Positions 1-12,954 of a DNA stretch of 17,575 nucleotides are shown here, piece by piece. The position numbers and the translations under genes are program-made. The notes under the pieces were generated by a model. The model made no database searches. It had not been told where the DNA came from and saw only the letters and a program-made list of their open reading frames with translations. The stretch spans positions 1 to 17,575 of the forward strand of contig JBMCXW010000065.1 of NCBI GenBank assembly GCA_048623775.1, in the 5' to 3' direction. This stretch comes from Myxococcota bacterium. Its GTDB lineage: Bacteria; Myxococcota_A; Polyangia; Polyangiales; Houyiibacteriaceae. The number at the start of each line of letters is the position of its first letter. Within the stretch, counting starts at the first letter, position 1.

Positions 1-426
1 GGCGGCGGGCTGGGGATGCGCGGCTTGTCCGGCCCCTGGCCGGCCGGGGACGGTGCCCCGGCGCCCGACGGCCCCGCCGGAGGCGGCGCGGCTCCACCCG
101 CCCCGGCCCCGCCGCCCGGCGGGGTCATGGGCCCCATCATGGTCTGCTGGAAGGCCAGGTTCTTCTTCGGCTCCGCTTGCGATTCCCCAGGCGTGCCGGC
201 GGCCGGGCCCTGGGCCTCGCCGCCCGCCGGGGCGGCCTGCCCCTCCTCCTCGCCCTCGGCCGATTTGCCGGGCGGCTTGGGCGGGCTCATCCCCGTCATC
301 ATCATGGTGCCCTTGAACTTCGAGCCGGCGGGCTTGGCCTTCTCGAGCTCCTTGCCGCACGAGGCGCACTTCTCCGCCTGGTCGGTGTTGGGCTTGCCGC
401 AACTCGGACAGTAGATGGTCAACGCT
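1..426 (-). CDS. Small zinc-ribbon domain protein with a Pro/Gly/Ala-rich low-complexity tail. The gene is partial because the C-terminus runs off the window.
   Basis: The reverse-complement reading frame is open to the window edge. The N-terminus reads (TTG)TIYCPSCGKPNTDQAEKCASCGKELEKAKPAGSKFKGTMMMTG..., a double CxxC zinc-ribbon motif. A GGAGG Shine-Dalgarno sequence lies 6 nt upstream of the TTG at 426..424. The gene diverges from the nuo operon. The ORF tool did not list it because the frame runs off the edge. Confidence 0.45.
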
Positions 427-557
427 CCCCTCCAGGCTTCATAATGGGTGGGGGGCCGGAGGCCCACCGCCAGCCGCTTGCGAGGCAGCCGTACCGTAGC
501 GGCTCCGCCGGTCCGAGGAAACCCCTTTTCCCGCGGTTCGGCGGGGGTTTGCGGTCC

Positions 558-586
558 TTGACTTAAGCCACGTCGGCGCCTAGCGT
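558..586 (+). promoter_or_regulatory. Candidate sigma70-like promoter for the nuo operon: TTGACT, 17 bp spacer, TAGCGT.
   Basis: TTGACT lies at 558-563 and a TAnnnT hexamer (TAGCGT) at 581-586 with a 17-nt spacer. Both sit in the 247-bp divergent intergenic region about 90 nt upstream of the nuoE ATG. Confidence 0.3.
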
Positions 587-673
587 CCCGCTCGCTTGCC
601 CCCGCGAGAGCGCCTCGTGGTGAGGTGCGAGCACGGTCCGCCCTTCCCCGGGCGGGCTCCGCGGAACGCACCC

Positions 674-1174
674 ATGGCCTTCGCCCTCACACCCGAGCGA
701 GACAAGCGAGTCGACGAGATCCTCGGCCGATATCCCGATCGGCGGGCTGCCCTGATTCCGGTGCTCTGGCTCTGCCAGGAGCAGAACGGCTGGGTGAGCC
801 CCGACGTCATCCTGTTCGTGGCCGAGCGCCTGGGGATCTCGACCGCCGCCGTCAAGGGGGTGGTGACCTTCTACACCATGTTCCACGAGGAGCCGGTCGC
901 GCCGAACGTGGTGTGGGTGTGCCGGACGCTTTCCTGTGAGGTCCGCGGGGCCAAGGCGATCCAGGAGCACCTCGAGAAGCGCTTCGGATGCCACGTCGGG
1001 GAGACGAGCAAGGACGGCAAGTTCACGCTGCTGAAGGCGGAGTGCCTGGCCGCCTGCGGCCAGGCGCCCATGGTGCAGATCAACGACCGCTACTACGAGG
1101 ACCTGTCGATCGAGAAGCTGGACGAGGCCCTCGACCGGATCGACGCCGAGACACGGGTCCCGCAGGAGTCCTAA
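674..1174 (+). CDS. nuoE: NADH-quinone oxidoreductase subunit E (24 kDa subunit, thioredoxin-like [2Fe-2S]).
   Basis: The sequence MAFALTPERDKRVDEILGRYPDRRAALIPVLWLCQEQNGWVSPD... is followed by the four-Cys pattern CRTLSCEV...CLAACGQAPMVQIND that is typical of NuoE. The ATG at 674 was chosen over the upstream TTG at 596 because the N-terminus then matches the family. TAA stop at 1172-1174. Confidence 0.9.
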   Translation: MAFALTPERDKRVDEILGRYPDRRAALIPVLWLCQEQNGWVSPDVILFVAERLGISTAAVKGVVTFYTMFHEEPVAPNVVWVCRTLSCEVRGAKAIQEHLEKRFGCHVGETSKDGKFTLLKAECLAACGQAPMVQINDRYYEDLSIEKLDEALDRIDAETRVPQES

Positions 1175-1179
1175 CCGCC

Positions 1180-2559
1180 ATGTCGGAGCTCGAGCCCCTT
1201 CTGACCGCCCGCTACGGCATCGCCGACAGCCACACGATCGCCGTGGCTGAACGGGAGGGCGCATACCAGGTGGCGCGCAAGGCGTTCACGACCATGCAGC
1301 CCGAGCAGATCAAGGAAGAGGTCAAGAAGGCCAACATCCGGGGTCGGGGCGGTGCCGGTTTCCCCGCTGGCGTGAAGTGGGGGTTCTTGAACCCGGCGCC
1401 CGGGCAGAAGGTCTATCTGGTCGTCAACGCCGACGAGAGCGAGCCGGGGACGTTCAAGGACCGCACCATCATGGACCTGGATCCCCACCGGTTGCTCGAG
1501 GGGGTCCTCATCAGTTGCTATGGAATCGGTGCGAACACGGCGTACATCTACGTGCGCGGTGAGCTGAAGTTCTCCATCGACCGGCTCGAGCAGGCCATCG
1601 AGGAGGCGCGGGCGAAGGGCTATGTGGGTGACCGTCCCTTCGGCAAGGACCACCCGGTGAACATCTACGTTCACTCGGGGGCGGGGGCCTACATCTGCGG
1701 CGAGGAGACGGGGCTGCTCAACTCCCTCGAGGGCAAGCGAGGCGAGCCGCGGCTCAAGCCGCCGTTCCCGGCGCAGGTGGGGGTGTTCGGGGAGCCGACG
1801 ATCGTCAACAACGTGGAGACCATCGCGGCCGTGCCGGACATCATCGCCATGGGCGGCGACGCCTGGTCGGGGCTGAGCCGTCTCCCCGGGGACGGCGGGG
1901 TGCGGCTGTACGGCGTGAGCGGGCACGTCAAGAAGCCCGGCATCTACGAGGCGCCGGTGGGCATCACCCTTCGGGAGCTCATCGACGAATACGGCGGCGG
2001 CATGCTGCACGACGACCGCCCCCTGAAAGGGGTCATCCCGGGCGGCTCCTCCACTCCGGTTCTGCGGCCCGACCGCATGGTCGAGGCGCCCGATCCCGAG
2101 CACCCCTTGCACCAGTGGCACGGAAAGAGCGAGATCGACGTCCCCATGGGGGTCGATACCTACCGCGCGCTCGGCACCATGCTGGGGACCACCTGCGCCA
2201 TCGTGATGGACAGCTCGGTCAACATGGTGGACGCCTGTCGCAACCTGATGCGCTTCTACGCCCACGAGTCGTGCGGGCAGTGCACCCCGTGCCGCGAGGG
2301 CACCGGATGGCTCGTGGACGTGCTGGACGGCATCTGCGAGGGCCGCGGGCGCCCGGAGGACGTGGCGCTGCTCGTGGACATCGCCAACAACATGATGGGC
2401 AACACCATCTGTGCCTTCGCGGACGGCACGGCCATGCCGATGCTCGGGTTCATCCGGCAGTTTCGCGACGAGTTCCTCGAGGTGGTGAAGGCGGGGGGGC
2501 TCGGGTCCGAGGTCCGGCTCGACGACAGCACGCGCAAGCTGCTGGGGAGGGCCGCGTGA
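1180..2559 (+). CDS. nuoF: NADH-quinone oxidoreductase subunit F (51 kDa subunit; NADH, FMN and [4Fe-4S] binding).
   Basis: Motifs present are GRGGAGFPAGVKWGF, ESEPGTFKDR, CGEETGLLNSLEGKRGEPRLKPPFPAQVGVFGEPTIVNNVET and ESCGQCTPCREGTGW. The ATG at 1180 is 5 nt after the nuoE stop. The product is 459 aa. Confidence 0.93.
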   Translation: MSELEPLLTARYGIADSHTIAVAEREGAYQVARKAFTTMQPEQIKEEVKKANIRGRGGAGFPAGVKWGFLNPAPGQKVYLVVNADESEPGTFKDRTIMDLDPHRLLEGVLISCYGIGANTAYIYVRGELKFSIDRLEQAIEEARAKGYVGDRPFGKDHPVNIYVHSGAGAYICGEETGLLNSLEGKRGEPRLKPPFPAQVGVFGEPTIVNNVETIAAVPDIIAMGGDAWSGLSRLPGDGGVRLYGVSGHVKKPGIYEAPVGITLRELIDEYGGGMLHDDRPLKGVIPGGSSTPVLRPDRMVEAPDPEHPLHQWHGKSEIDVPMGVDTYRALGTMLGTTCAIVMDSSVNMVDACRNLMRFYAHESCGQCTPCREGTGWLVDVLDGICEGRGRPEDVALLVDIANNMMGNTICAFADGTAMPMLGFIRQFRDEFLEVVKAGGLGSEVRLDDSTRKLLGRAA

Positions 2560-3197
2560 ACGCGTCCACCGAGATCTTCGTGCTCCTGTGCGGCGTGTTC
2601 GCCTTGGGCGGCGCGCTGGCCACGGTGCTCGCCAAGAGCCCGCTCCGGGCGGCCATGGGGCTCCTGCTGAACATCGTGTCCCTGGCCGGGTTGTTTCTGG
2701 CGCTCCACGCCCAGCTTCTGGCGGTCATCCAGCTCATCGTGTACGCGGGCGCGGTCGTCGTGCTGTTCGTGTTCGTCATCATGCTGATCGGTCCGTCGGC
2801 GACCGTGGGGCACGACGCGCGGGGGCTCCTCGCGCGCACCGTCGGGTTGGCCTCCATGGCCATCGTGACGGGGGGGCTGCTCTTCGTTGCGCGCCGGTTC
2901 GTATTGCCGCCCGCCCAGGTGCCCACCTGTGCGCCCGGCCAGGCCGACTGCGTGCCCTTCGGCGGGGTGGAAGCCGTGGCTCGGGCCCTCTACGTCGACG
3001 CGGCGCTGCCCTTCGAGCTGCTCTCGGTCGCGTTGCTGGTTGCCGTCGTCGGTGCGGTGGCGGTGGCCCGCGGCCGATCGGCCGCGGAAGCGGAGGCGGC
3101 GCGGCGGCTGCAGGCGGAGCGCGAGGCCCGGGCGGCCAAGAAGCGCGAACAAGAAGAACGGTTGTCCGCCGAAGTGGCGGCCCACGGCGGGCACTGA
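2556..3197 (+). CDS. nuoJ: NADH-quinone oxidoreductase subunit J (ND6-like), with a charged C-terminal extension.
   Basis: The GTG start at 2556 overlaps the nuoF stop as GTGA, and GGGGAGG lies 5 nt upstream. IVYAGAVVVLFVFVIML and PFELLSVALLVAVVGAVAVAR are NuoJ hallmarks. The C-terminal roughly 40 aa are rich in E, R, A and K. Confidence 0.85.
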   Translation: MNASTEIFVLLCGVFALGGALATVLAKSPLRAAMGLLLNIVSLAGLFLALHAQLLAVIQLIVYAGAVVVLFVFVIMLIGPSATVGHDARGLLARTVGLASMAIVTGGLLFVARRFVLPPAQVPTCAPGQADCVPFGGVEAVARALYVDAALPFELLSVALLVAVVGAVAVARGRSAAEAEAARRLQAEREARAAKKREQEERLSAEVAAHGGH

Positions 3198-3221
3198 GAC
3201 CCATGGGAACGGGAGGGACGG

Positions 3222-3530
3222 TTGGAGATCGGCATCGGTGAGCTGTTGGGGCTTTCGACGGTCCTGTTCGGGATCGGCGCGATGGGCTTCCTCACGCGCC
3301 GGAACGTGCTCATCCAACTCATGTGCATCGAGCTGATGCTCAATGCGGTGAACGTGGCCCTGGTGGGGATGAACCGCTGGCTTCCGGGCGACCACGTCGG
3401 GCAGGTGTTCGCGTTCTTCGTCATCGCCGTTGCGGCTGCCGAAGCCGCGGTGGGGCTCGCCATCGTCATCAGCTACTTCCGGCTGAAGAAGACGGTGGAG
3501 ATCGACAAGGCGGACGCTCTGAGGCACTAG
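3222..3530 (+). CDS. nuoK: NADH-quinone oxidoreductase subunit K (ND4L-like).
   Basis: TTG start with GGGAGGG upstream. The 102-aa product has three TM segments and the conserved IELMLNAVNVALV and AAAEAAVGLAIV stretches. Confidence 0.85.
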   Translation: MEIGIGELLGLSTVLFGIGAMGFLTRRNVLIQLMCIELMLNAVNVALVGMNRWLPGDHVGQVFAFFVIAVAAAEAAVGLAIVISYFRLKKTVEIDKADALRH

Positions 3531-3557
3531 CGACGGGCAGGCTGGGGAAGAAGACCC

Positions 3558-7818
<4,261 letters not shown>

Positions 7819-7822
<4 letters not shown>

Positions 7823-9309
7823 GCCCCTGGTTCGTGCTCCTGCCCCTGTTCGTGCTGGCTGGCGGCGGCCTGATCGTGATGCTCGTGGACGCGTTCTCGA
7901 AGCGGGACGCGCAGGGGCGGGGTCCGGAGTTGCCCGTGCTCACGGCAGCGCTGCTCACCATCGCCGGGCTGAGCTCGCTCGCCCTGTGGCTGTTCGGCGG
8001 GCCGGCCGAGGTGCCCGAGCTGCTCGACGACTACCTGGCCGTGGACTCCATGGCCCTGTTCTTCGACGTGGTCATCTGCGGCGGCGGCGCGCTGAGCGCC
8101 CTGCTCGCGGGCGGCTACCTCGCCGAGCACCGGTTCGAGCGCGGTGAGTTCTACGTGCTTCTGCTGTTCAGCGCCTTCGGGGCCATGGTCCTGGCCCGCG
8201 CGACCGACCTGCTCACCCTGTTCATCGGCCTCGAGACCATGTCGCTGGGCGTGTACTGCATGATCGCCTTTCGGCGCACCAGCTCCCGCGCGGCGGAGGC
8301 GGCCATCAAGTACTTCCTGCTGGGCTCCTTCGCCGCGGCCATTCTCCTGTTCGGGAGCGCGTTGCTGTACGGCGCCACGGGCCATACGCGCCTGGCCGCG
8401 ATCGGCACGGCGGTGGCTGGCGGCGACGCGATCCTGCCGGTGGCCCTCATGGGGCTCGTGCTGGTGCTCGTGGGGCTCGCCTTCAAGGTGAGCGCCGTGC
8501 CGTTCCACATGTGGACGCCGGACGCCTACGAGGGCGCCCCCACGCCGGCCACCACCTTCATGTCGGTGGCGGTCAAGGCGGCGGCGTTCGCGGTGCTCGT
8601 GCGGGTGCTGGCGGTGTCCTTCGGCGACGAGCTGAGCGCCTCGGTGGCCACCGGCTGGCCCCCCGTGGTCGCGGGCCTGGCGGCGCTCAGCATGGTGGTT
8701 GGCAACGCCGCGGCGGTGGTCCAGCCCAGCGTCAAGCGCATGCTGGCGTACTCCTCCATCGCCCATGCCGGCTACGCGCTGGTGGCCGTGGCGGCCATGC
8801 ACGCGGTGGGGCAGGAGGGCGTGAGCGCCGTCCTGTACTACATGATGGCGTACACCGTCTCGAACGTGCTCGCCTTCGGCTCGCTCATCCTGATGGGGTC
8901 GTACGGCAAAGAGGCGGTGACGTACGAGGACCTGGCGGGGCTCGGCCGCCGGCACCCGCTCGCGGCGTTGCCGTTCGTGGTTGGCGTGCTTTCGCTCCTC
9001 GGCCTGCCGCCCACGGCCGGGTTCTTCGGCAAGTACTACGCCTTCAACGCGGCGGTGCAGGCCGACATGGTGTGGCTGGCGGTGCTGGGAGTCCTCGCAA
9101 GCGCGGTGGGTGCCTACTACTACCTGCGCGTCATCGTGTTTCTCTTCATGCGGGAGCCGCGGGCGGGCGCCCCGATCGCGGTGCCCATGCGGTCCGGGTA
9201 CGTGGCGGCGGCGCTGGTGGTCTCCGGCTACTTCGTCATGAAGATGGGCATCACACCCGGGACGTACCTGGACTGGGCCATCGAGGCGGCCCAGCAACTG
9301 GTGTCATGA
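7819..9309 (+). CDS. nuoN: NADH-quinone oxidoreductase subunit N (ND2-like).
   Basis: ATGA overlap with nuoM. 496 aa. Motifs FHMWTPDAYEGAPTPATTFMS and SIAHAGYALVAV are present. The protein is strongly hydrophobic. Confidence 0.9.
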
Positions 9310-10202
9310 GCGGGCGCGCGGCGGCACGGGCGTCGCAGTGGCTGCCGATTGCGCTCGTCGCGCTCGTCGGCTGCGAGAGTTGCCATCGCCCACCCGGCGA
9401 GGCGGCCGAGCCCGGTGCCGAGTCGGAGCCGGCGGTGCAGGGAGCCGAGGGGATCGGGGTCGTGGAAGGGGTGGTCCGCCTGGCCGAGGGCGCCGAGCTT
9501 CCCGAGTACTCGCGCGCGGCGCTCGAGGAGAAGCCGGACACGGAGCGGCCCGAGGGATGTCCGCCCCCGAAGCGGTCCGAGGTGCGGCCCGTGCGGCTCG
9601 GCGACGGGCGTGGGCTCGAGGGGGTGCTCGTGAGCGCGACCGATTTCTCCGAGTCGCCGCCGCACGAGCCGAAGCAGCGCGAGGTGGTGATCCGCGACTG
9701 CATCCTGCAGCCCGCGCTCGTGGTCGGCATGCGGGGCGAGCAGCTCGTCGTCCGGAACGAGAGCGACTATCCGTTCCTACCCCGCATCGCCGGCGACCCG
9801 TTCATGCAAGCGCTTCCCAAGGGGAAGAGCCGGGAGATCCCGCTCGAGCGCGGGGGCGCCTACCCGCTCGTGTGCGGGATGGGAGCCCCCTGCGGCCGGG
9901 CCGACGTGATCGTGCTGTATCATCCGGTGTACGCCGTGACGGAGTCGGGAGGCCGTTTCCGCATACCCAACGTGCCTGCGGACGGCCCGGTCAAGCTGCA
10001 CGCATGGCATCCGCTCTTCGAGGAGGCGGAGCTCGAAGTGGACGTCGAGCCCCGCGAGGCCCGGCAGGTCGCGCTGACGCTGAAGCCCGCCGAGCGTGTG
10101 CCCACCGACCCCGAGAAGAGGGATCCAAAGGCAAAGCCGGACGAAGCCGACACCGACGCGGAGGGCGACGACGACGAAGCCGATACCGACGCCGGCACCT
10201 GA
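9306..10202 (+). CDS. Putative lipoprotein, translationally coupled to nuoN, with a beta-sandwich segment like the carboxypeptidase regulatory domain and an acidic C-terminal tail.
   Basis: The ATG at 9306 overlaps the nuoN stop as ATGA. The N-terminus MSGRAAARASQWLPIALVALVGC has an LVGC lipobox. An internal stretch YAVTESGGRFRIPNVPADGPVKLHAW resembles the CarboxypepD_reg motif. The C-terminus is DEADTDAEGDDDEADTDAGT. I do not recognise a known family. Confidence 0.6.
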   Translation: MSGRAAARASQWLPIALVALVGCESCHRPPGEAAEPGAESEPAVQGAEGIGVVEGVVRLAEGAELPEYSRAALEEKPDTERPEGCPPPKRSEVRPVRLGDGRGLEGVLVSATDFSESPPHEPKQREVVIRDCILQPALVVGMRGEQLVVRNESDYPFLPRIAGDPFMQALPKGKSREIPLERGGAYPLVCGMGAPCGRADVIVLYHPVYAVTESGGRFRIPNVPADGPVKLHAWHPLFEEAELEVDVEPREARQVALTLKPAERVPTDPEKRDPKAKPDEADTDAEGDDDEADTDAGT

Positions 10203-10214
10203 ACGCGCGCGCCC

Positions 10215-10243
10215 TTGACACACGGGGGACGGGTATCCAAATG
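10215..10243 (+). promoter_or_regulatory. Candidate promoter for the encapsulin operon. A TTGACA hexamer is present but the -10 element is weak.
   Basis: TTGACA lies at 10215-10220, 35 nt upstream of the EncFtn start. No -10 element close to consensus was found at 16-18 nt spacing; the best candidate is CCAAAT. Confidence 0.2.
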
Positions 10244-10254
10244 TGGGGAACCAG

Positions 10255-10647
10255 ATGGCAGGTCAGTATCACGAGCCTCGCGACGTCCTGAGCACCAAGA
10301 CGCTCGACGTCAAACGCGCCATCGACTCCATGATGGAGGAGCTCGAGGCGATCGACTGGTACCGGCAGCGTGCGGAGGCCGCGTCCGATCCTGCGCTCCG
10401 CGCCATCCTGGACCACCACCAGCGCGAGGAGATCGAGCACTTCGCGATGCTGCTCGAATGGCTGCGCCGCAACGATGCGGACTTCGCCGACCAGCTCCGC
10501 GACTACCTGTTCACCGAAGGCGACATCGTGGCCGCCGAGGAAGAGGCGAACGGGCCCGGCGATCGGGGGAGCGGCTCCGCCGGCGAGGCGCCGGCCGAGC
10601 GCGAGTCCCGCCGCCGCACCATCGGGGGCCTGAAGGAGGGCACATGA
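10255..10647 (+). CDS. Encapsulated ferritin-like cargo protein (EncFtn) with a C-terminal encapsulin targeting peptide.
   Basis: MAGQYHEPRDVLSTKTLDVKRAIDSMMEELEAIDWYRQRAEAASDPALRAILDHHQREEIEHFAMLLEWLRRNDADF is near-collinear with the EncFtn of Rhodospirillum rubrum as I remember it, including the MEELEA...EEKEH ferroxidase residues. The C-terminal ...SRRRTIGGLKEGT fits the cargo-loading peptide pattern xIGxLK. A GGGGAA Shine-Dalgarno sequence lies 4 nt upstream of the ATG at 10255. A GTG at 10243 is an alternative start. Confidence 0.85.
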   Translation: MAGQYHEPRDVLSTKTLDVKRAIDSMMEELEAIDWYRQRAEAASDPALRAILDHHQREEIEHFAMLLEWLRRNDADFADQLRDYLFTEGDIVAAEEEANGPGDRGSGSAGEAPAERESRRRTIGGLKEGT

Positions 10648-11447
10648 TTCAGCCGGTGGTCCCCCACGGCCTGAGCGGGGAGCTGCTGCATCGCATCGAA
10701 GAGGCCGCGATGGAGCAGGCGCGCGAGGTGCTCACGGCGCGCAGGTTCCTGGAGTTCGAGGGGCCGCTCGGTGCGGGGGTTCCGTCCTTGCAGGTCGGCG
10801 ACCTGATCGAGGAGTCGGTGGACGACGAGGGCACCCTCATCGCCGCCCGGCGCGCGCTGCCCATCCCGACGCTACACGCCACCTTCCGGCTGCCCACCCG
10901 GGAGCTGCAGGGGGCGCAGGAGCACGGCTTCCCGCTGTCCACGGGGCCGGCCGAGGACGCCGCCGAGCGGGTGGCCCTCGCCGAGGAGCGGCTCATCTAC
11001 CACGGCCACGCCGATCTCGGCATCGGCGGCCTGCTGAACACCTCGGGCGCGCAGCGGACGGCCCTGTCGGACTGGTCGAACCCGGGCGCCGCCATCGGCG
11101 ACGTCATCGCCGCCGCCGACAAGCTGGACGCGGCCGGCGTGCACGCGCCCTTCGCCCTGGTGCTGGCGCCCACGCTCTACAACCAGCTCTTCCGCAAGTA
11201 CGAGGGCAGCGACGTCCTGGCCCTCGACCACCTGCGGCGGCTCGCCGCCGGAGGCATCTACAAGTCCCACGTGCTGCGGGACACGGCCGCCCTGGTGTCG
11301 CCGGACGTCGGGCCCCTCGTCTGCGCGCAGGACCTGCAGGTGAGCTTCCTCGACATGGCCGCCGACACGGTGCGCTTCCTCGTGTCGTCCAGCGTGGTGC
11401 TGCGGCTCGACGACGCCGCCGCCGTATGCGTGCTCGCTAGGAAGTAG
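10644..11447 (+). CDS. Family 1 encapsulin shell protein (linocin M18-like, HK97 fold).
   Basis: The ATG at 10644 overlaps the EncFtn stop as ATGA, and GAAGGAGGG lies upstream. The 267-aa product has RRFLEFEGPLGAGV and EERLIYHGHADLGIGGLL...DWSNPGAAIGDVIAAADKLDAAGVHAPFALVLAPTLYNQLFRKYEGSDVLALDHLRRLAAGGIYKSHVLR, which closely parallel the EncA of Myxococcus xanthus and the encapsulin of Thermotoga maritima as I remember them. Confidence 0.9.
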   Translation: MIQPVVPHGLSGELLHRIEEAAMEQAREVLTARRFLEFEGPLGAGVPSLQVGDLIEESVDDEGTLIAARRALPIPTLHATFRLPTRELQGAQEHGFPLSTGPAEDAAERVALAEERLIYHGHADLGIGGLLNTSGAQRTALSDWSNPGAAIGDVIAAADKLDAAGVHAPFALVLAPTLYNQLFRKYEGSDVLALDHLRRLAAGGIYKSHVLRDTAALVSPDVGPLVCAQDLQVSFLDMAADTVRFLVSSSVVLRLDDAAAVCVLARK

Positions 11448-12954
11448 CGAGCCGCACGACGCGGTCGCCGGGGCGGACGACGGCCCGTCGCGGCCGATCC
11501 GCGGGAAGGGCGTCGAAGGCGGCCTTCCAGTCCCGGAAGCGGCCGCCCGCGCGCACCGCCTCGAGCACCGCCCGCCCCTCGGCCTGCCCGCCCTGGGCCA
11601 GCACGTGCTCGACCCACGCCCAGCGCACGCTCGTGGCGCGGATGTCCACCCGTCCCTTGACCCCCTTGCGCAGCCGGGCGAGCCGGCGCTCCACCACGTC
11701 CATGCCCGCAAAGGGCAGCCCGTCGAGGGGCGTGTTGCGCTTCGACACGAAGGGAGCGATGCCGAGCGACAGGGGCGCGATCCGAGACAGCTCCACCGAG
11801 AACCGCACCAGCTCGTCCACGTCCTCGTCGGTCTCCTCCGGCAGGCCGAGCATCATGTAGAGCTTGAGCCGCTCGAGCCCGTGGCGGCGGACGAGCTCGG
11901 CCGCCCGTCGCAGATCGTCCTCGCGGGCGCGCCGCTTGATGACGTTGCGCAGGCGCTGGCTGGCGCCGTCGCTGGCGGTCGTGAGCGTGCGGTACCCGCC
12001 CGCCTTGAGCGCGGCCACGAAGCGATCGTTCAGGCGATCGGCCCGGAGCGACGAGATGCCCACCTCGCAACCGCGCTCCACCAGCGCCTCGACGATGTCC
12101 ACGATCCGGGGATGGTCGGTGACGGCGGCGCCCACCAGCCCCACGCGGCACGCGTCCTCGGGCACCAGCGCCAGGAGCCGCTCGGGCGAAACCACGCGCA
12201 TGCCCCCGTTGGTGGAGCGCCGCATGACGCAATAGGTGCAGCCGCGGTGGCACCCTCGCTCGGGCTCCACGAGGAACATGTCCCGGAGCTCGGTGTGCGG
12301 GGTGCGGATCTGGGCGTAGGCCGGCAGCCGGGCGTCGTCGCACTTGGCGACCGGGGGCATGGCGTCGCCGTGCAGCGATGGAACGAAGCAGCTCGGGATG
12401 GTATCGGCCAGCCGCCGCAGCGCCCGGCGCTTGTCCGGCGCCGCGAAGACCACGTCCAACGCCTGGTGGATCGTCTCGTCCGCCTCTCCCATCAGGATGG
12501 CGTCGACGAAGGGGGCCAGGGGGAGGGGGTTGGAGAAGGTGAGGGGGCCGCCGCCGAGCACCAGCGGGTCCACCTCGCGCCGCGCCTCGGCCAGCGGCGC
12601 GAGGCCCGCCTGCTCGAGGCATTGCACGACGCCGGCCAGCTCGGTCTCGTAGGCGACCGAGAAGGCGACCACCGGGTAGTCGCCCACCGGCAGGCCCCCC
12701 TCGTAGGTCGTCAGGGGGCCCCCCGCGTCGCCGGCCGCCCGGAGCTCGTCCGGCAAGAACGCGCGGTGGGCGGTGCGGCCCGGGTGCTCGTTGATCTCCC
12801 GGTAGATCGTCTGGAACCCGAGGGAGGACATCCCGACCGAGTAGGGGCTCGGATACACGAGGGCCACCCGCTCGGGCGCGTCCTTGTAGACCGTCCCGAT
12901 CTCGTCCTCGAGGCGCCGCCGGACGTCGGCGCCCGCATCTCGGCGGCTGGCCAT
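11437..12954 (-). CDS. B12-binding-domain radical SAM protein. The family is uncharacterised.
   Basis: 505 aa. The N-terminal Rossmann-like stretch VALVYPSPYSVGMSSLGFQTIY resembles a B12-binding domain. The CxxxCxxC motif is ERGCHRGCTYCV. The MiaB MTTase motifs and a TRAM domain are absent. The stop at 11437-11439 overlaps the encapsulin 3' end by 11 bp, and the two genes are convergent. Confidence 0.8.
   Translation of the reverse strand: MASRRDAGADVRRRLEDEIGTVYKDAPERVALVYPSPYSVGMSSLGFQTIYREINEHPGRTAHRAFLPDELRAAGDAGGPLTTYEGGLPVGDYPVVAFSVAYETELAGVVQCLEQAGLAPLAEARREVDPLVLGGGPLTFSNPLPLAPFVDAILMGEADETIHQALDVVFAAPDKRRALRRLADTIPSCFVPSLHGDAMPPVAKCDDARLPAYAQIRTPHTELRDMFLVEPERGCHRGCTYCVMRRSTNGGMRVVSPERLLALVPEDACRVGLVGAAVTDHPRIVDIVEALVERGCEVGISSLRADRLNDRFVAALKAGGYRTLTTASDGASQRLRNVIKRRAREDDLRRAAELVRRHGLERLKLYMMLGLPEETDEDVDELVRFSVELSRIAPLSLGIAPFVSKRNTPLDGLPFAGMDVVERRLARLRKGVKGRVDIRATSVRWAWVEHVLAQGGQAEGRAVLEAVRAGGRFRDWKAAFDALPADRPRRAVVRPGDRVVRLATS

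What the first reader, a model, noticed from the sequence alone, without database searches (positions are those of the whole stretch)
10203..11447. Two-gene encapsulin nanocompartment operon (EncFtn cargo and family-1 shell) immediately downstream of a complex I membrane-arm operon
Two ORFs overlap as ATGA. The first is a 130-aa ferritin-like protein. Its Glu/His ferroxidase pattern (MEELEA...EEIEH) and its C-terminal xIGGLK tail match the encapsulated ferritins. The second is a 267-aa protein collinear with HK97-fold encapsulins (YGPLGAGV / DWSNPG / YKSHVLR blocks). Together they would form an iron-mineralising or oxidative-stress nanocompartment. The architecture belongs to a known class, but the placement is unusual. 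It sits directly after nuoN and a coupled lipoprotein, and it converges on a radical SAM gene with an 11-bp overlap. I have not seen that placement described.
Basis: partly seen in the sequence, partly recalled or inferred. Interest (0 to 1): 0.6.

Follow-up and report, generated by a model that had tools for sequence, protein, structure and literature searches.

The report
Ordinary encapsulated-ferritin encapsulin operon
The two overlapping genes are a textbook iron-storage protein nanocompartment: a ferritin-like cargo enzyme and its virus-like shell, already named as such in the public annotation, and their position next to respiratory complex I genes is a gene order shared only by a few close relatives.

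Summary
Window 10255-10647 encodes a 130-aa EncFtn (Pfam PF22277, E=1.9e-36; 51% identical to the solved Rhodospirillum rubrum EncFtn). All ferroxidase and metal-entry residues are present, and so is a C-terminal TIGGLK targeting motif. It overlaps by ATGA the gene at 10644-11447, a 267-aa family 1 encapsulin shell (PF04454, E=7.6e-58; NCBIfam equivalog encap_f1, 213 bits against a cut-off of 100). The AlphaFold model (pLDDT 91) matches solved encapsulins at TM 0.84-0.86.

The window is a whole NCBI contig from a Myxococcota MAG. There the shell is already named 'family 1 encapsulin nanocompartment shell protein' and the cargo 'ferritin'.

In 89 of 90 related loci an EncFtn gene lies directly upstream of the shell. 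74 of 80 distinct cargo C-termini carry T[IVL]Gx[LM][KR].

The 'unusual placement' does not hold up as a functional link. The order nuoEF-JKLMN, lipoprotein, encFtn, enc occurs only in relatives with at least 71% shell identity, where the whole region is collinear. It is absent from every relative at 65% identity or less. The radical SAM neighbour is separated by five inserted genes in one nuo-linked relative.

Verdict: a known system type. Low interest.

The parts
10255..10647 (+). encFtn, the encapsulated ferritin-like cargo (130 aa). The ferritin-like two-helix domain covers residues 4-96. A Gly/Ser/Ala/Glu-rich linker covers about residues 97-120. The targeting peptide is at the C-terminus. 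Ferroxidase-centre residues are E29 (10339-10341), E59 (10429-10431) and H62 (10438-10440). Entry-site residues are E28, E31 and W35.
   Evidence: Pfam EncFtn-like PF22277, E=1.9e-36, 124 bits against GA 27, covering 85/85 profile positions. The best PDB matches are R. rubrum EncFtn 33bf/5da5, E=1.7e-33 and 3.4e-31. Residue correspondence to Rru E31/E32/E34/W38/Y39/E62/H65 was read from the alignment. E31, W35, Y36, E59 and H62 are invariant in alignment A1; E28 and E29 are conserved in all rows except the frameshift-garbled L005 row. NCBIfam TIGR04535 scores 124.2 bits against a cut-off of 125. The NCBI name is 'ferritin'.
10618..10635 (+). C-terminal cargo-loading (targeting) peptide core TIGGLK, residues 122-127 of EncFtn, preceded by RRR.
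   Evidence: It aligns with LGIGSLK of R. rubrum EncFtn. 74 of 80 distinct EncFtn C-termini next to related shells carry T[IVL]Gx[LM][KR] within their last 22 residues. It is the only ORF tail in the window with such a motif.
10644..10647 (+). ATGA start/stop overlap between encFtn and enc (translational coupling).
   Evidence: Read directly from the sequence. The same 4-bp overlap is present in L001, L003, L005, L007 and L008.
10644..11447 (+). enc, the family 1 encapsulin shell protein (267 aa, HK97 fold). The N-helix covers residues 12-27 and the E-loop hairpin about 48-73. A flexible loop at about 181-200 (YEGSD region) has low pLDDT and may be the A-domain pore loop, which is an inference.
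   Evidence: Pfam Linocin_M18 PF04454, E=7.6e-58. NCBIfam encap_f1 equivalog, 213.3 bits against a cut-off of 100. PDB sequence hits: M. xanthus EncA 2.3e-37 and Q. thermotolerans 7.5e-35. AF2 model pLDDT 91.1, pTM 0.87. Foldseek against PDB: the top 50 are all encapsulin shells or engineered cages derived from them, TM 0.78-0.86. The NCBI name is 'family 1 encapsulin nanocompartment shell protein'.
10215..10220 (+). TTGACA hexamer in the 52-nt gap between the lipoprotein stop and the encFtn start. It is a possible -35 element of an operon-specific promoter (inference only).
   Evidence: The hexamer is invariant in the window, L001 and L003 and is present, offset, in L005, although the flanking bases diverge. 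The consensus scan found no complete sigma-70 promoter and no plus-strand terminator between 9200 and 11800; its single terminator-like site is on the minus strand at 10151-10136.

Best explanation
This is a classical family 1 encapsulin iron-storage and iron-detoxification nanocompartment.

The two translationally coupled genes are expressed together. The 267-aa HK97-fold protein self-assembles into an icosahedral shell. A 60-mer T=1 shell of about 24 nm is most likely; T=3 is not excluded.

The 130-aa EncFtn forms annular decamers. Its di-iron ferroxidase centres (E29, E59, H62, contributed across a dimer interface) oxidise Fe(II) that enters through the shell pores. A flexible linker and the C-terminal TIGGLK peptide dock the cargo to the pocket on the shell's inner face formed by the N-helix and P-domain. 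Fe(III) mineral therefore accumulates inside the shell.

Shown here by computation: family membership of both proteins, conserved catalytic residues, the conserved C-terminal motif, the HK97 fold, and obligatory gene pairing. Inferred from characterised homologues (R. rubrum, H. ochraceum, T. maritima, M. xanthus): decamer formation, ferroxidase activity, peptide docking and mineralisation.

The adjacency to nuoEF-JKLMN, the lipoprotein and the radical SAM gene is lineage-specific synteny without demonstrated functional meaning.
For: Both proteins pass curated family thresholds.

EncFtn is 51% identical to the solved R. rubrum EncFtn. All ferroxidase and entry-site residues are conserved.

The C-terminal T[IVL]Gx[LM][KR] motif occurs in 74 of 80 distinct homologous cargo tails.

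The shell AF2 model (pLDDT 91) superposes on solved encapsulins at TM 0.84-0.86.

EncFtn lies directly upstream of the shell in 89 of 90 related loci. The exception is cut by a contig end.

For the T=1 leaning: the model fits T=1-state protomers at 2.8-3.0 A (EncA T=1 8v4n and 9b9i, H. ochraceum 7odw), against 6.4-7.0 A for T=3-state EncA chains. The E-loop is about 9 residues shorter than in EncA.
Against: Nothing contradicts the assignment.

Minor caveats:
- TIGR04535 scores 0.8 bits below its curated cut-off.
- By sequence the shell is closest to M. xanthus EncA (T=3) and the Firmicutes T=4 shells, not to the T=1 shells that carry EncFtn in R. rubrum and H. ochraceum. The triangulation number is therefore not settled.
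- An AF2 monomer conformation is a weak predictor of assembly state.
- There is no experimental data for this MAG.
Confidence: 0.93

Rival explanations
1. The encapsulin operon is functionally coupled to complex I in this Myxococcota clade. It would be co-transcribed with nuoEF-JKLMN and the lipoprotein, for example to buffer or supply iron for Fe-S cluster assembly, or to protect against respiratory ROS.
For: The genes are on the same strand. The gap is only 52 nt, and no plus-strand terminator-like site was found in it. The arrangement recurs in three related lineages besides the window.
Against: The linkage is confined to relatives with at least 71% shell identity, and their whole 17-20 kb region is collinear. 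This is what shared ancestry alone would give.

1 of 80 species-level loci (L012, the same contig as L005) has nuo genes immediately upstream. One other (L057) has only weak, opposite-strand hits about 10 kb away.

In L005, three extra genes lie between nuoN and encFtn.

A conserved TTGACA in the gap suggests the operon has its own promoter.

A full-text search for encapsulin, 'genome neighborhood' and 'NADH dehydrogenase' together returned no paper.
Confidence: 0.05
2. The 267-aa protein is a degenerate prophage HK97 major capsid protein, and the upstream ferritin-like gene is unrelated to it.
For: There is a weak secondary Pfam hit to Major_capside PF09950 (E=6.9e-8). Encapsulins share the HK97 fold with phage capsids.
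Against: The equivalog-level encap_f1 match is far above its cut-off. The top 50 structural matches are all encapsulin shells or engineered cages derived from them. Pfam annotation of the window's main ORFs shows no terminase, portal, protease or other phage gene. Pairing with a targeting-peptide-bearing EncFtn is obligatory in 89 of 90 loci.
Confidence: 0.01
3. This is a M. xanthus-type multi-cargo EncA system forming a T=3 shell of about 32 nm, with EncB/C/D-like cargos elsewhere in the genome and this EncFtn as only one of several cargos.
For: M. xanthus EncA is the closest solved shell by sequence (2.3e-37) and by fold. The organism is a Myxococcota member.
Against: The cargo falls below the EncB-family cut-off (71 bits against 90) and fits the classical EncFtn models far better. 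The shell is 20 residues shorter than EncA, including an E-loop about 9 residues shorter. The model resembles T=1-state protomers. No other ORF in the window has a targeting-peptide-like tail, but only 17.6 kb of the genome is visible.
Confidence: 0.15

Closest known systems
Rhodospirillum rubrum EncFtn/encapsulin system (Rru_A0973/Rru_A0974; PDB 5da5, 33bf, 9ry4)
   Same: It has the same two-gene layout, with the cargo directly upstream of the shell. The cargo is 51% identical over the ferritin-like domain. The ferroxidase residues (E32/E62/H65) and entry-site residues (E31/E34/W38) are identical. Both have a flexible linker followed by a C-terminal xIGxLK targeting peptide.
   Different: The shell here is only distantly similar to the R. 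rubrum shell (E=4e-17, against 2e-37 for EncA). The targeting-peptide core is TIGGLK rather than GIGSLK.
Myxococcus xanthus EncA shell (PDB 4pt2, 7s20, 7s21)
   Same: It is the closest solved shell by sequence (about 32-33% identity, E=2.3e-37) and by structure (TM 0.84-0.86). Both are from Myxococcota, and both are iron-storage encapsulins.
   Different: EncA is 287 aa with a longer E-loop. It forms mainly T=3 shells. Its cargos are EncB, EncC and EncD, which are encoded partly elsewhere. Here a single classical EncFtn is encoded in the operon, and it does not reach the EncB-family cut-off.
Haliangium ochraceum encapsulin:EncFtn complex (PDB 7odw, 7oe2, 5n5f)
   Same: It is a Myxococcota T=1 shell with EncFtn cargo. 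The cargo matches at E=6.4e-29, and the shell model superposes at TM 0.86 and 2.9 A.
   Different: Shell sequence similarity is low (26% identity, E=7.6e-19). It belongs to a different shell subclade.

Membership tests
Family 1 (classical) encapsulin shell | Sequence match to the curated shell models (Pfam PF04454 Linocin_M18; NCBIfam NF041155 encap_f1 equivalog) above their cut-offs | tested here: met
   PF04454 scores 196.2 bits against 24.3, covering 239 of 253 profile positions. NF041155 scores 213.3 bits against 100.
Family 1 (classical) encapsulin shell | HK97 phage-like fold with A-domain, P-domain, E-loop and an N-terminal helix, and without a Family 2 N-extension or cNMP-binding insertion | tested here: met
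   AF2 model pLDDT 91.1. The N-helix covers residues 12-27 and the E-loop hairpin 48-73. The Foldseek top 50 are all Family 1 encapsulin shells or engineered cages derived from them, TM 0.78-0.86. At 267 aa there is no room for extra domains.
Family 1 (classical) encapsulin shell | Primary cargo gene directly upstream that carries a short C-terminal targeting peptide | tested here: met
   EncFtn ends in RRRTIGGLKEGT and overlaps the shell gene by 4 bp. The pairing holds in 89 of 90 loci and the motif in 74 of 80 distinct tails.
Family 1 (classical) encapsulin shell | Self-assembly into an icosahedral T=1, T=3 or T=4 shell that encloses the cargo | not testable with these tools
   Only a monomer model could be made. 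Its E-loop conformation resembles T=1-state protomers, which is a hint and not a test.
Encapsulated ferritin (EncFtn / Flp cargo) | Match to the EncFtn family models | tested here: met
   Pfam PF22277 scores 124.1 bits against GA 27, full-length 85/85. NCBIfam TIGR04535 scores 124.2 bits, 0.8 bits below its cut-off of 125. That near miss explains the generic NCBI name 'ferritin'.
Encapsulated ferritin (EncFtn / Flp cargo) | Ferroxidase-centre residues Glu32, Glu62 and His65, and entry-site residues Glu31, Glu34 and Trp38 (R. rubrum numbering) | tested here: met
   E29, E59 and H62, and E28, E31 and W35, align exactly with them. E31, W35, Y36, E59 and H62 are invariant in A1; E28 and E29 are conserved in all rows except the frameshift-garbled L005 row.
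Encapsulated ferritin (EncFtn / Flp cargo) | Annular D5 decamer with ferroxidase activity, unable to store iron without the shell | not testable with these tools
   This needs expression, native mass spectrometry or crystallography, and ferroxidase assays.
M. xanthus EncB/EncC-type cargo | Match to NCBIfam NF058679 (EncB_fam) above its cut-off | tested here: not met
   71.4 bits against a cut-off of 90. NF058678 EncB scores 29.6 against 210.

The most novel reading that the evidence does not exclude
In one Myxococcota clade the EncFtn encapsulin operon has been recruited as a downstream module of a split complex I operon (nuoEF-JKLMN plus a coupled lipoprotein). It would be co-transcribed with that operon, linking compartmentalised iron storage to respiratory-chain Fe-S supply or ROS protection. 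A second, smaller open point is whether this widespread shell subfamily forms T=1 or larger shells. The subfamily is EncA-like in sequence but only 267 aa long with a short E-loop, and it is always paired with EncFtn.
Probability: 0.05. Interest if true: 0.4.

Novelty: already known. Interest (0 to 1): 0.07.

Why it matters
It matters little beyond correct annotation. The system type (family 1 encapsulin with EncFtn/Flp cargo) has been structurally and biochemically characterised in several organisms. It is the second most common Family 1 class.

The useful by-products are small:
- The cargo, named only 'ferritin' at NCBI, can be re-labelled as an encapsulated ferritin with a targeting peptide.
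- The survey shows a coherent shell subfamily in Myxococcota, Alpha- and Gammaproteobacteria and Binatia that is invariably paired with EncFtn carrying a T[IVL]Gx[LM][KR] tail.

Tried and rejected
- Exact look-up of the shell protein in the contig index found nothing. The origin came instead from the homologue search and the cluster look-up.
- The sigma-70 and terminator consensus scan of 9200-11800 found no promoter and only one minus-strand terminator-like site, about the chance expectation. Co-transcription with nuo can therefore be neither shown nor excluded.
- By eye I saw no Fur- or PerR-like box in the upstream gap. Only a conserved TTGACA and a loosely conserved ATCCCCA(A/T)GTGGGG stretch are there. 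I did not pursue this.
- My first targeting-peptide regular expression was too strict and missed even the true cargo. I relaxed it.
- I mis-framed several neighbouring ORFs at first (nuoE, nuoJ, S26 peptidase) and corrected them using the gene tables of relatives.
- A literature search for an encapsulin-NADH dehydrogenase neighbourhood returned nothing.
- I considered and rejected a prophage capsid remnant, an EncB/C-type cargo, and horizontal-transfer composition bias. GC is 0.69-0.74 across 10001-11800, like the rest of the window.
- I did not model EncFtn, because 51% identity to solved structures made it unnecessary. Cargo-shell co-folding is not possible with the tools.

Full report
**Observation.** The ORF map and the raw sequence confirm two plus-strand genes that overlap as ATGA.
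- The first is a 130-aa ORF at 10255-10647. An in-frame GTG lies at 10243, but homologues and the NCBI gene call both start at MAGQYHEP.
- The second is a 267-aa ORF at 10644-11447.
- The minus-strand 505-aa radical SAM ORF (11437-12954) overlaps the shell gene's 3' end by 11 bp.
- Upstream, a 298-aa lipoprotein (9306-10202; lipobox LVGC, CarboxypepD_reg-like domain, acidic tail) overlaps the nuoN stop as ATGA.
- All quoted motifs are present except 'YGPLGAGV', which reads EGPLGAGV.

**Identity of the two proteins.**

The first protein is an encapsulated ferritin.
- It matches Pfam EncFtn-like end to end (E=1.9e-36).
- Among solved structures it is closest to Rhodospirillum rubrum EncFtn (E=1.7e-33), followed by H. 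ochraceum EncFtn and NE0167. M. xanthus EncB and EncC match only weakly, at about 1e-5.
- In the printed alignment, query positions are the R. rubrum positions minus 3. E28, E29, E31, W35, Y36, E59 and H62 therefore correspond to the entry-site and ferroxidase-centre residues E31, E32, E34, W38, Y39, E62 and H65. E31, W35, Y36, E59 and H62 are invariant across the aligned relatives. E28 and E29 are conserved in every row except the garbled L005 row.
- NCBIfam TIGR04535 scores 124.2 bits, a hair below its cut-off of 125. The EncB-family model is clearly not met.

The second protein is a family 1 encapsulin shell.
- It matches Pfam Linocin_M18 (E=7.6e-58) and the NCBIfam equivalog model 'family 1 encapsulin nanocompartment shell protein' (213 bits against a cut-off of 100).
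- An AlphaFold2 model built on 53 homologues has mean pLDDT 91 and pTM 0.87. It shows an N-helix, an E-loop hairpin and the mixed alpha/beta elements expected of the P and A domains.
- Foldseek against the PDB returns only encapsulin shells, or engineered cages derived from them, in the top 50, at TM 0.78-0.86.

**Origin and existing annotation.** The shell sequence is in NCBI as MFW6051456.1, 'MAG: family 1 encapsulin nanocompartment shell protein [Myxococcota bacterium]', on a contig of 17,575 bp. That length is the whole window. The cargo is MFW6051455.1, 'ferritin'. The system is therefore already recognised by routine annotation.

**Targeting peptide.** The cargo ends ...ERESRRRTIGGLKEGT.
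- I took the ORF that matches EncFtn in each of the 90 related loci and extended it to its stop codon.
- 74 of the 80 distinct C-terminal tails carry T[IVL]Gx[LM][KR] within their last 22 residues. TIGSLK and TLGSLK are the commonest forms.
- Four of the six exceptions carry near variants (TIGRIE, TIGAIE, TIGKLP, FTVGKP). One (L088) ends in a similar FTIGKP, and L009 comes from a frameshifted assembly.
- The motif aligns with GIGSLK of R. rubrum EncFtn.
- It fits the short C-terminal targeting peptides described for Family 1 cargo, which bind a site formed by the N-helix and P-domain (PMC8346489 and PMC11664910).
- No other ORF tail in the window has such a motif.

**Context test.**
- Gene tables for metagenomic relatives show the same order in the 82%, 80% and 71% identity relatives: nuoE, nuoF, nuoJ, nuoK, nuoL, nuoM, nuoN, a CarboxypepD_reg-like protein, EncFtn, Enc. 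In the first two this is followed by the convergent radical SAM, S26 peptidase and MiaE genes, then TsaD-family and GT5 genes. Those loci are thus collinear with the window across the whole region.
- In L005 (71%), three genes separate nuoN from encFtn, and five genes separate enc from the radical SAM gene: Fer2/FAD oxidoreductases, a kinase and an AAA_16 protein.
- Relatives at 50-65% identity, including Sandaracinaceae MAGs, have the same encFtn-enc pair in quite different surroundings. These include RlaP-like genes and FxsA, a response regulator, and LrgAB.
- I ran a tblastn survey of all 90 loci held, 80 of them species-representative genomes. EncFtn lies immediately upstream of the shell in 89; the exception is cut by a contig end. 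Nuo genes are adjacent only in L001-L003 and L005/L012.
- Only the two-gene unit is conserved. The nuo and radical SAM placement is shallow, lineage-specific synteny. Base composition across the operon (GC 0.69-0.74) matches the rest of the window.

**Expression.**
- The 52-nt gap upstream of encFtn has no consensus sigma-70 promoter. The scan found no plus-strand terminator-like site anywhere in 9200-11800, including after the lipoprotein gene and after enc.
- A TTGACA at 10215-10220 is conserved in the nuo-linked relatives although neighbouring bases vary.
- A GGGGA lies 6 nt before the ATG.
- An independent promoter, read-through from nuo, or both remain possible. This is inference only.

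**Shell size.**
- By sequence the shell is nearest M. xanthus EncA (T=3) and the Firmicutes T=4 shells. T=1 shells score far lower, including those that naturally hold EncFtn.
- However, the protein is 20 residues shorter than EncA, and about 9 of the missing residues are in the E-loop (alignment).
- The AF2 protomer superposes at 2.8-3.0 A on T=1-state protomers (EncA T=1 forms, H. ochraceum) but at 6.4-7.0 A on T=3-state EncA chains.
- According to PMC11664910, E-loop orientation is the main protomer difference between T=1 and T=3/T=4 shells.
- I lean towards T=1. A monomer prediction does not settle it.

**Mechanism.** By homology with the characterised systems (PMC5012862, PMC8791618; listed):
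- EncFtn decamers are tethered by their C-terminal peptides to the inner face of the shell.
- They oxidise Fe(II) that enters through the shell pores.
- The Fe(III) mineral is retained in the shell lumen.
- This gives iron storage and protection from Fenton chemistry.

Family membership, catalytic residues, the tail motif, the fold and the gene pairing are shown here computationally. Oligomer state, activity and loading are inferred.

**Verdict.** The only claimed novelty, the placement, is explained by shared ancestry within a small clade. This is a known system type that is already annotated. Interest is low.

Noticed in passing
window 3558-6194 (+), especially 5598-6194: NuoL is 878 aa. The NuoL family model ends at residue 681. 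The last ~197 residues or so are a soluble, non-membrane extension with a PKD-like 'FRWDLGADGTFE' motif and no Pfam hit. The extension is conserved in relatives (876 and 887 aa in L001 and L003; called as 575 + 343 aa in L005).
   Followed up: partly
window 596-9309 (+): The complex I cluster is nuoE-nuoF-nuoJ-nuoK-nuoL-nuoM-nuoN. There is no nuoG/H/I between F and J, and no nuoA-D in the window. The same split order is seen in L001, L003 and L005. The remaining subunits must be encoded elsewhere.
   Followed up: partly
window 9306-10202 (+): This is a 298-aa lipoprotein (lipobox LVGC, Cys23) with a CarboxypepD_reg-like domain at residues 193-260 and an acidic D/E/T-rich tail. It is translationally coupled to nuoN by an ATGA overlap. 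It is present after nuoN in the nuo-linked relatives (45-54% identity) and absent from the other encapsulin loci, so it belongs with nuo rather than with the encapsulin.
   Followed up: partly
window 10215-10249 (+): A conserved TTGACA, followed about 17 nt later by an ATCC(A/C)(A/C)A(A/T)(G/T)TGGGG-like stretch, sits upstream of encFtn in the window, L001 and L003. It could be a promoter or operator. No regulator is identified.
   Followed up: partly
window 1-566: ORFs at 16-414, 53-316 and 177-566 (+) upstream of nuoE give no Pfam match. What is encoded at the left end of the contig is unresolved.
   Followed up: no
L005 9600-10004 and L009 9559-10001: Both loci come from the same long-read assembly (ERZ25039495). 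They show apparent frameshifts in encFtn (L005 N-terminus, L009 C-terminus) and a truncated shell gene call (244 aa). These are probably assembly indels, not biology.
   Followed up: no
window 11437-12954 (-): The convergent radical SAM protein has a Radical_SAM_N2/B12-binding-like N-terminus. It matches TIGR03960 only partially (180 bits against a cut-off of 462). Its function is unknown. It travels with the S26 signal peptidase and MiaE genes, not with the encapsulin.
   Followed up: no
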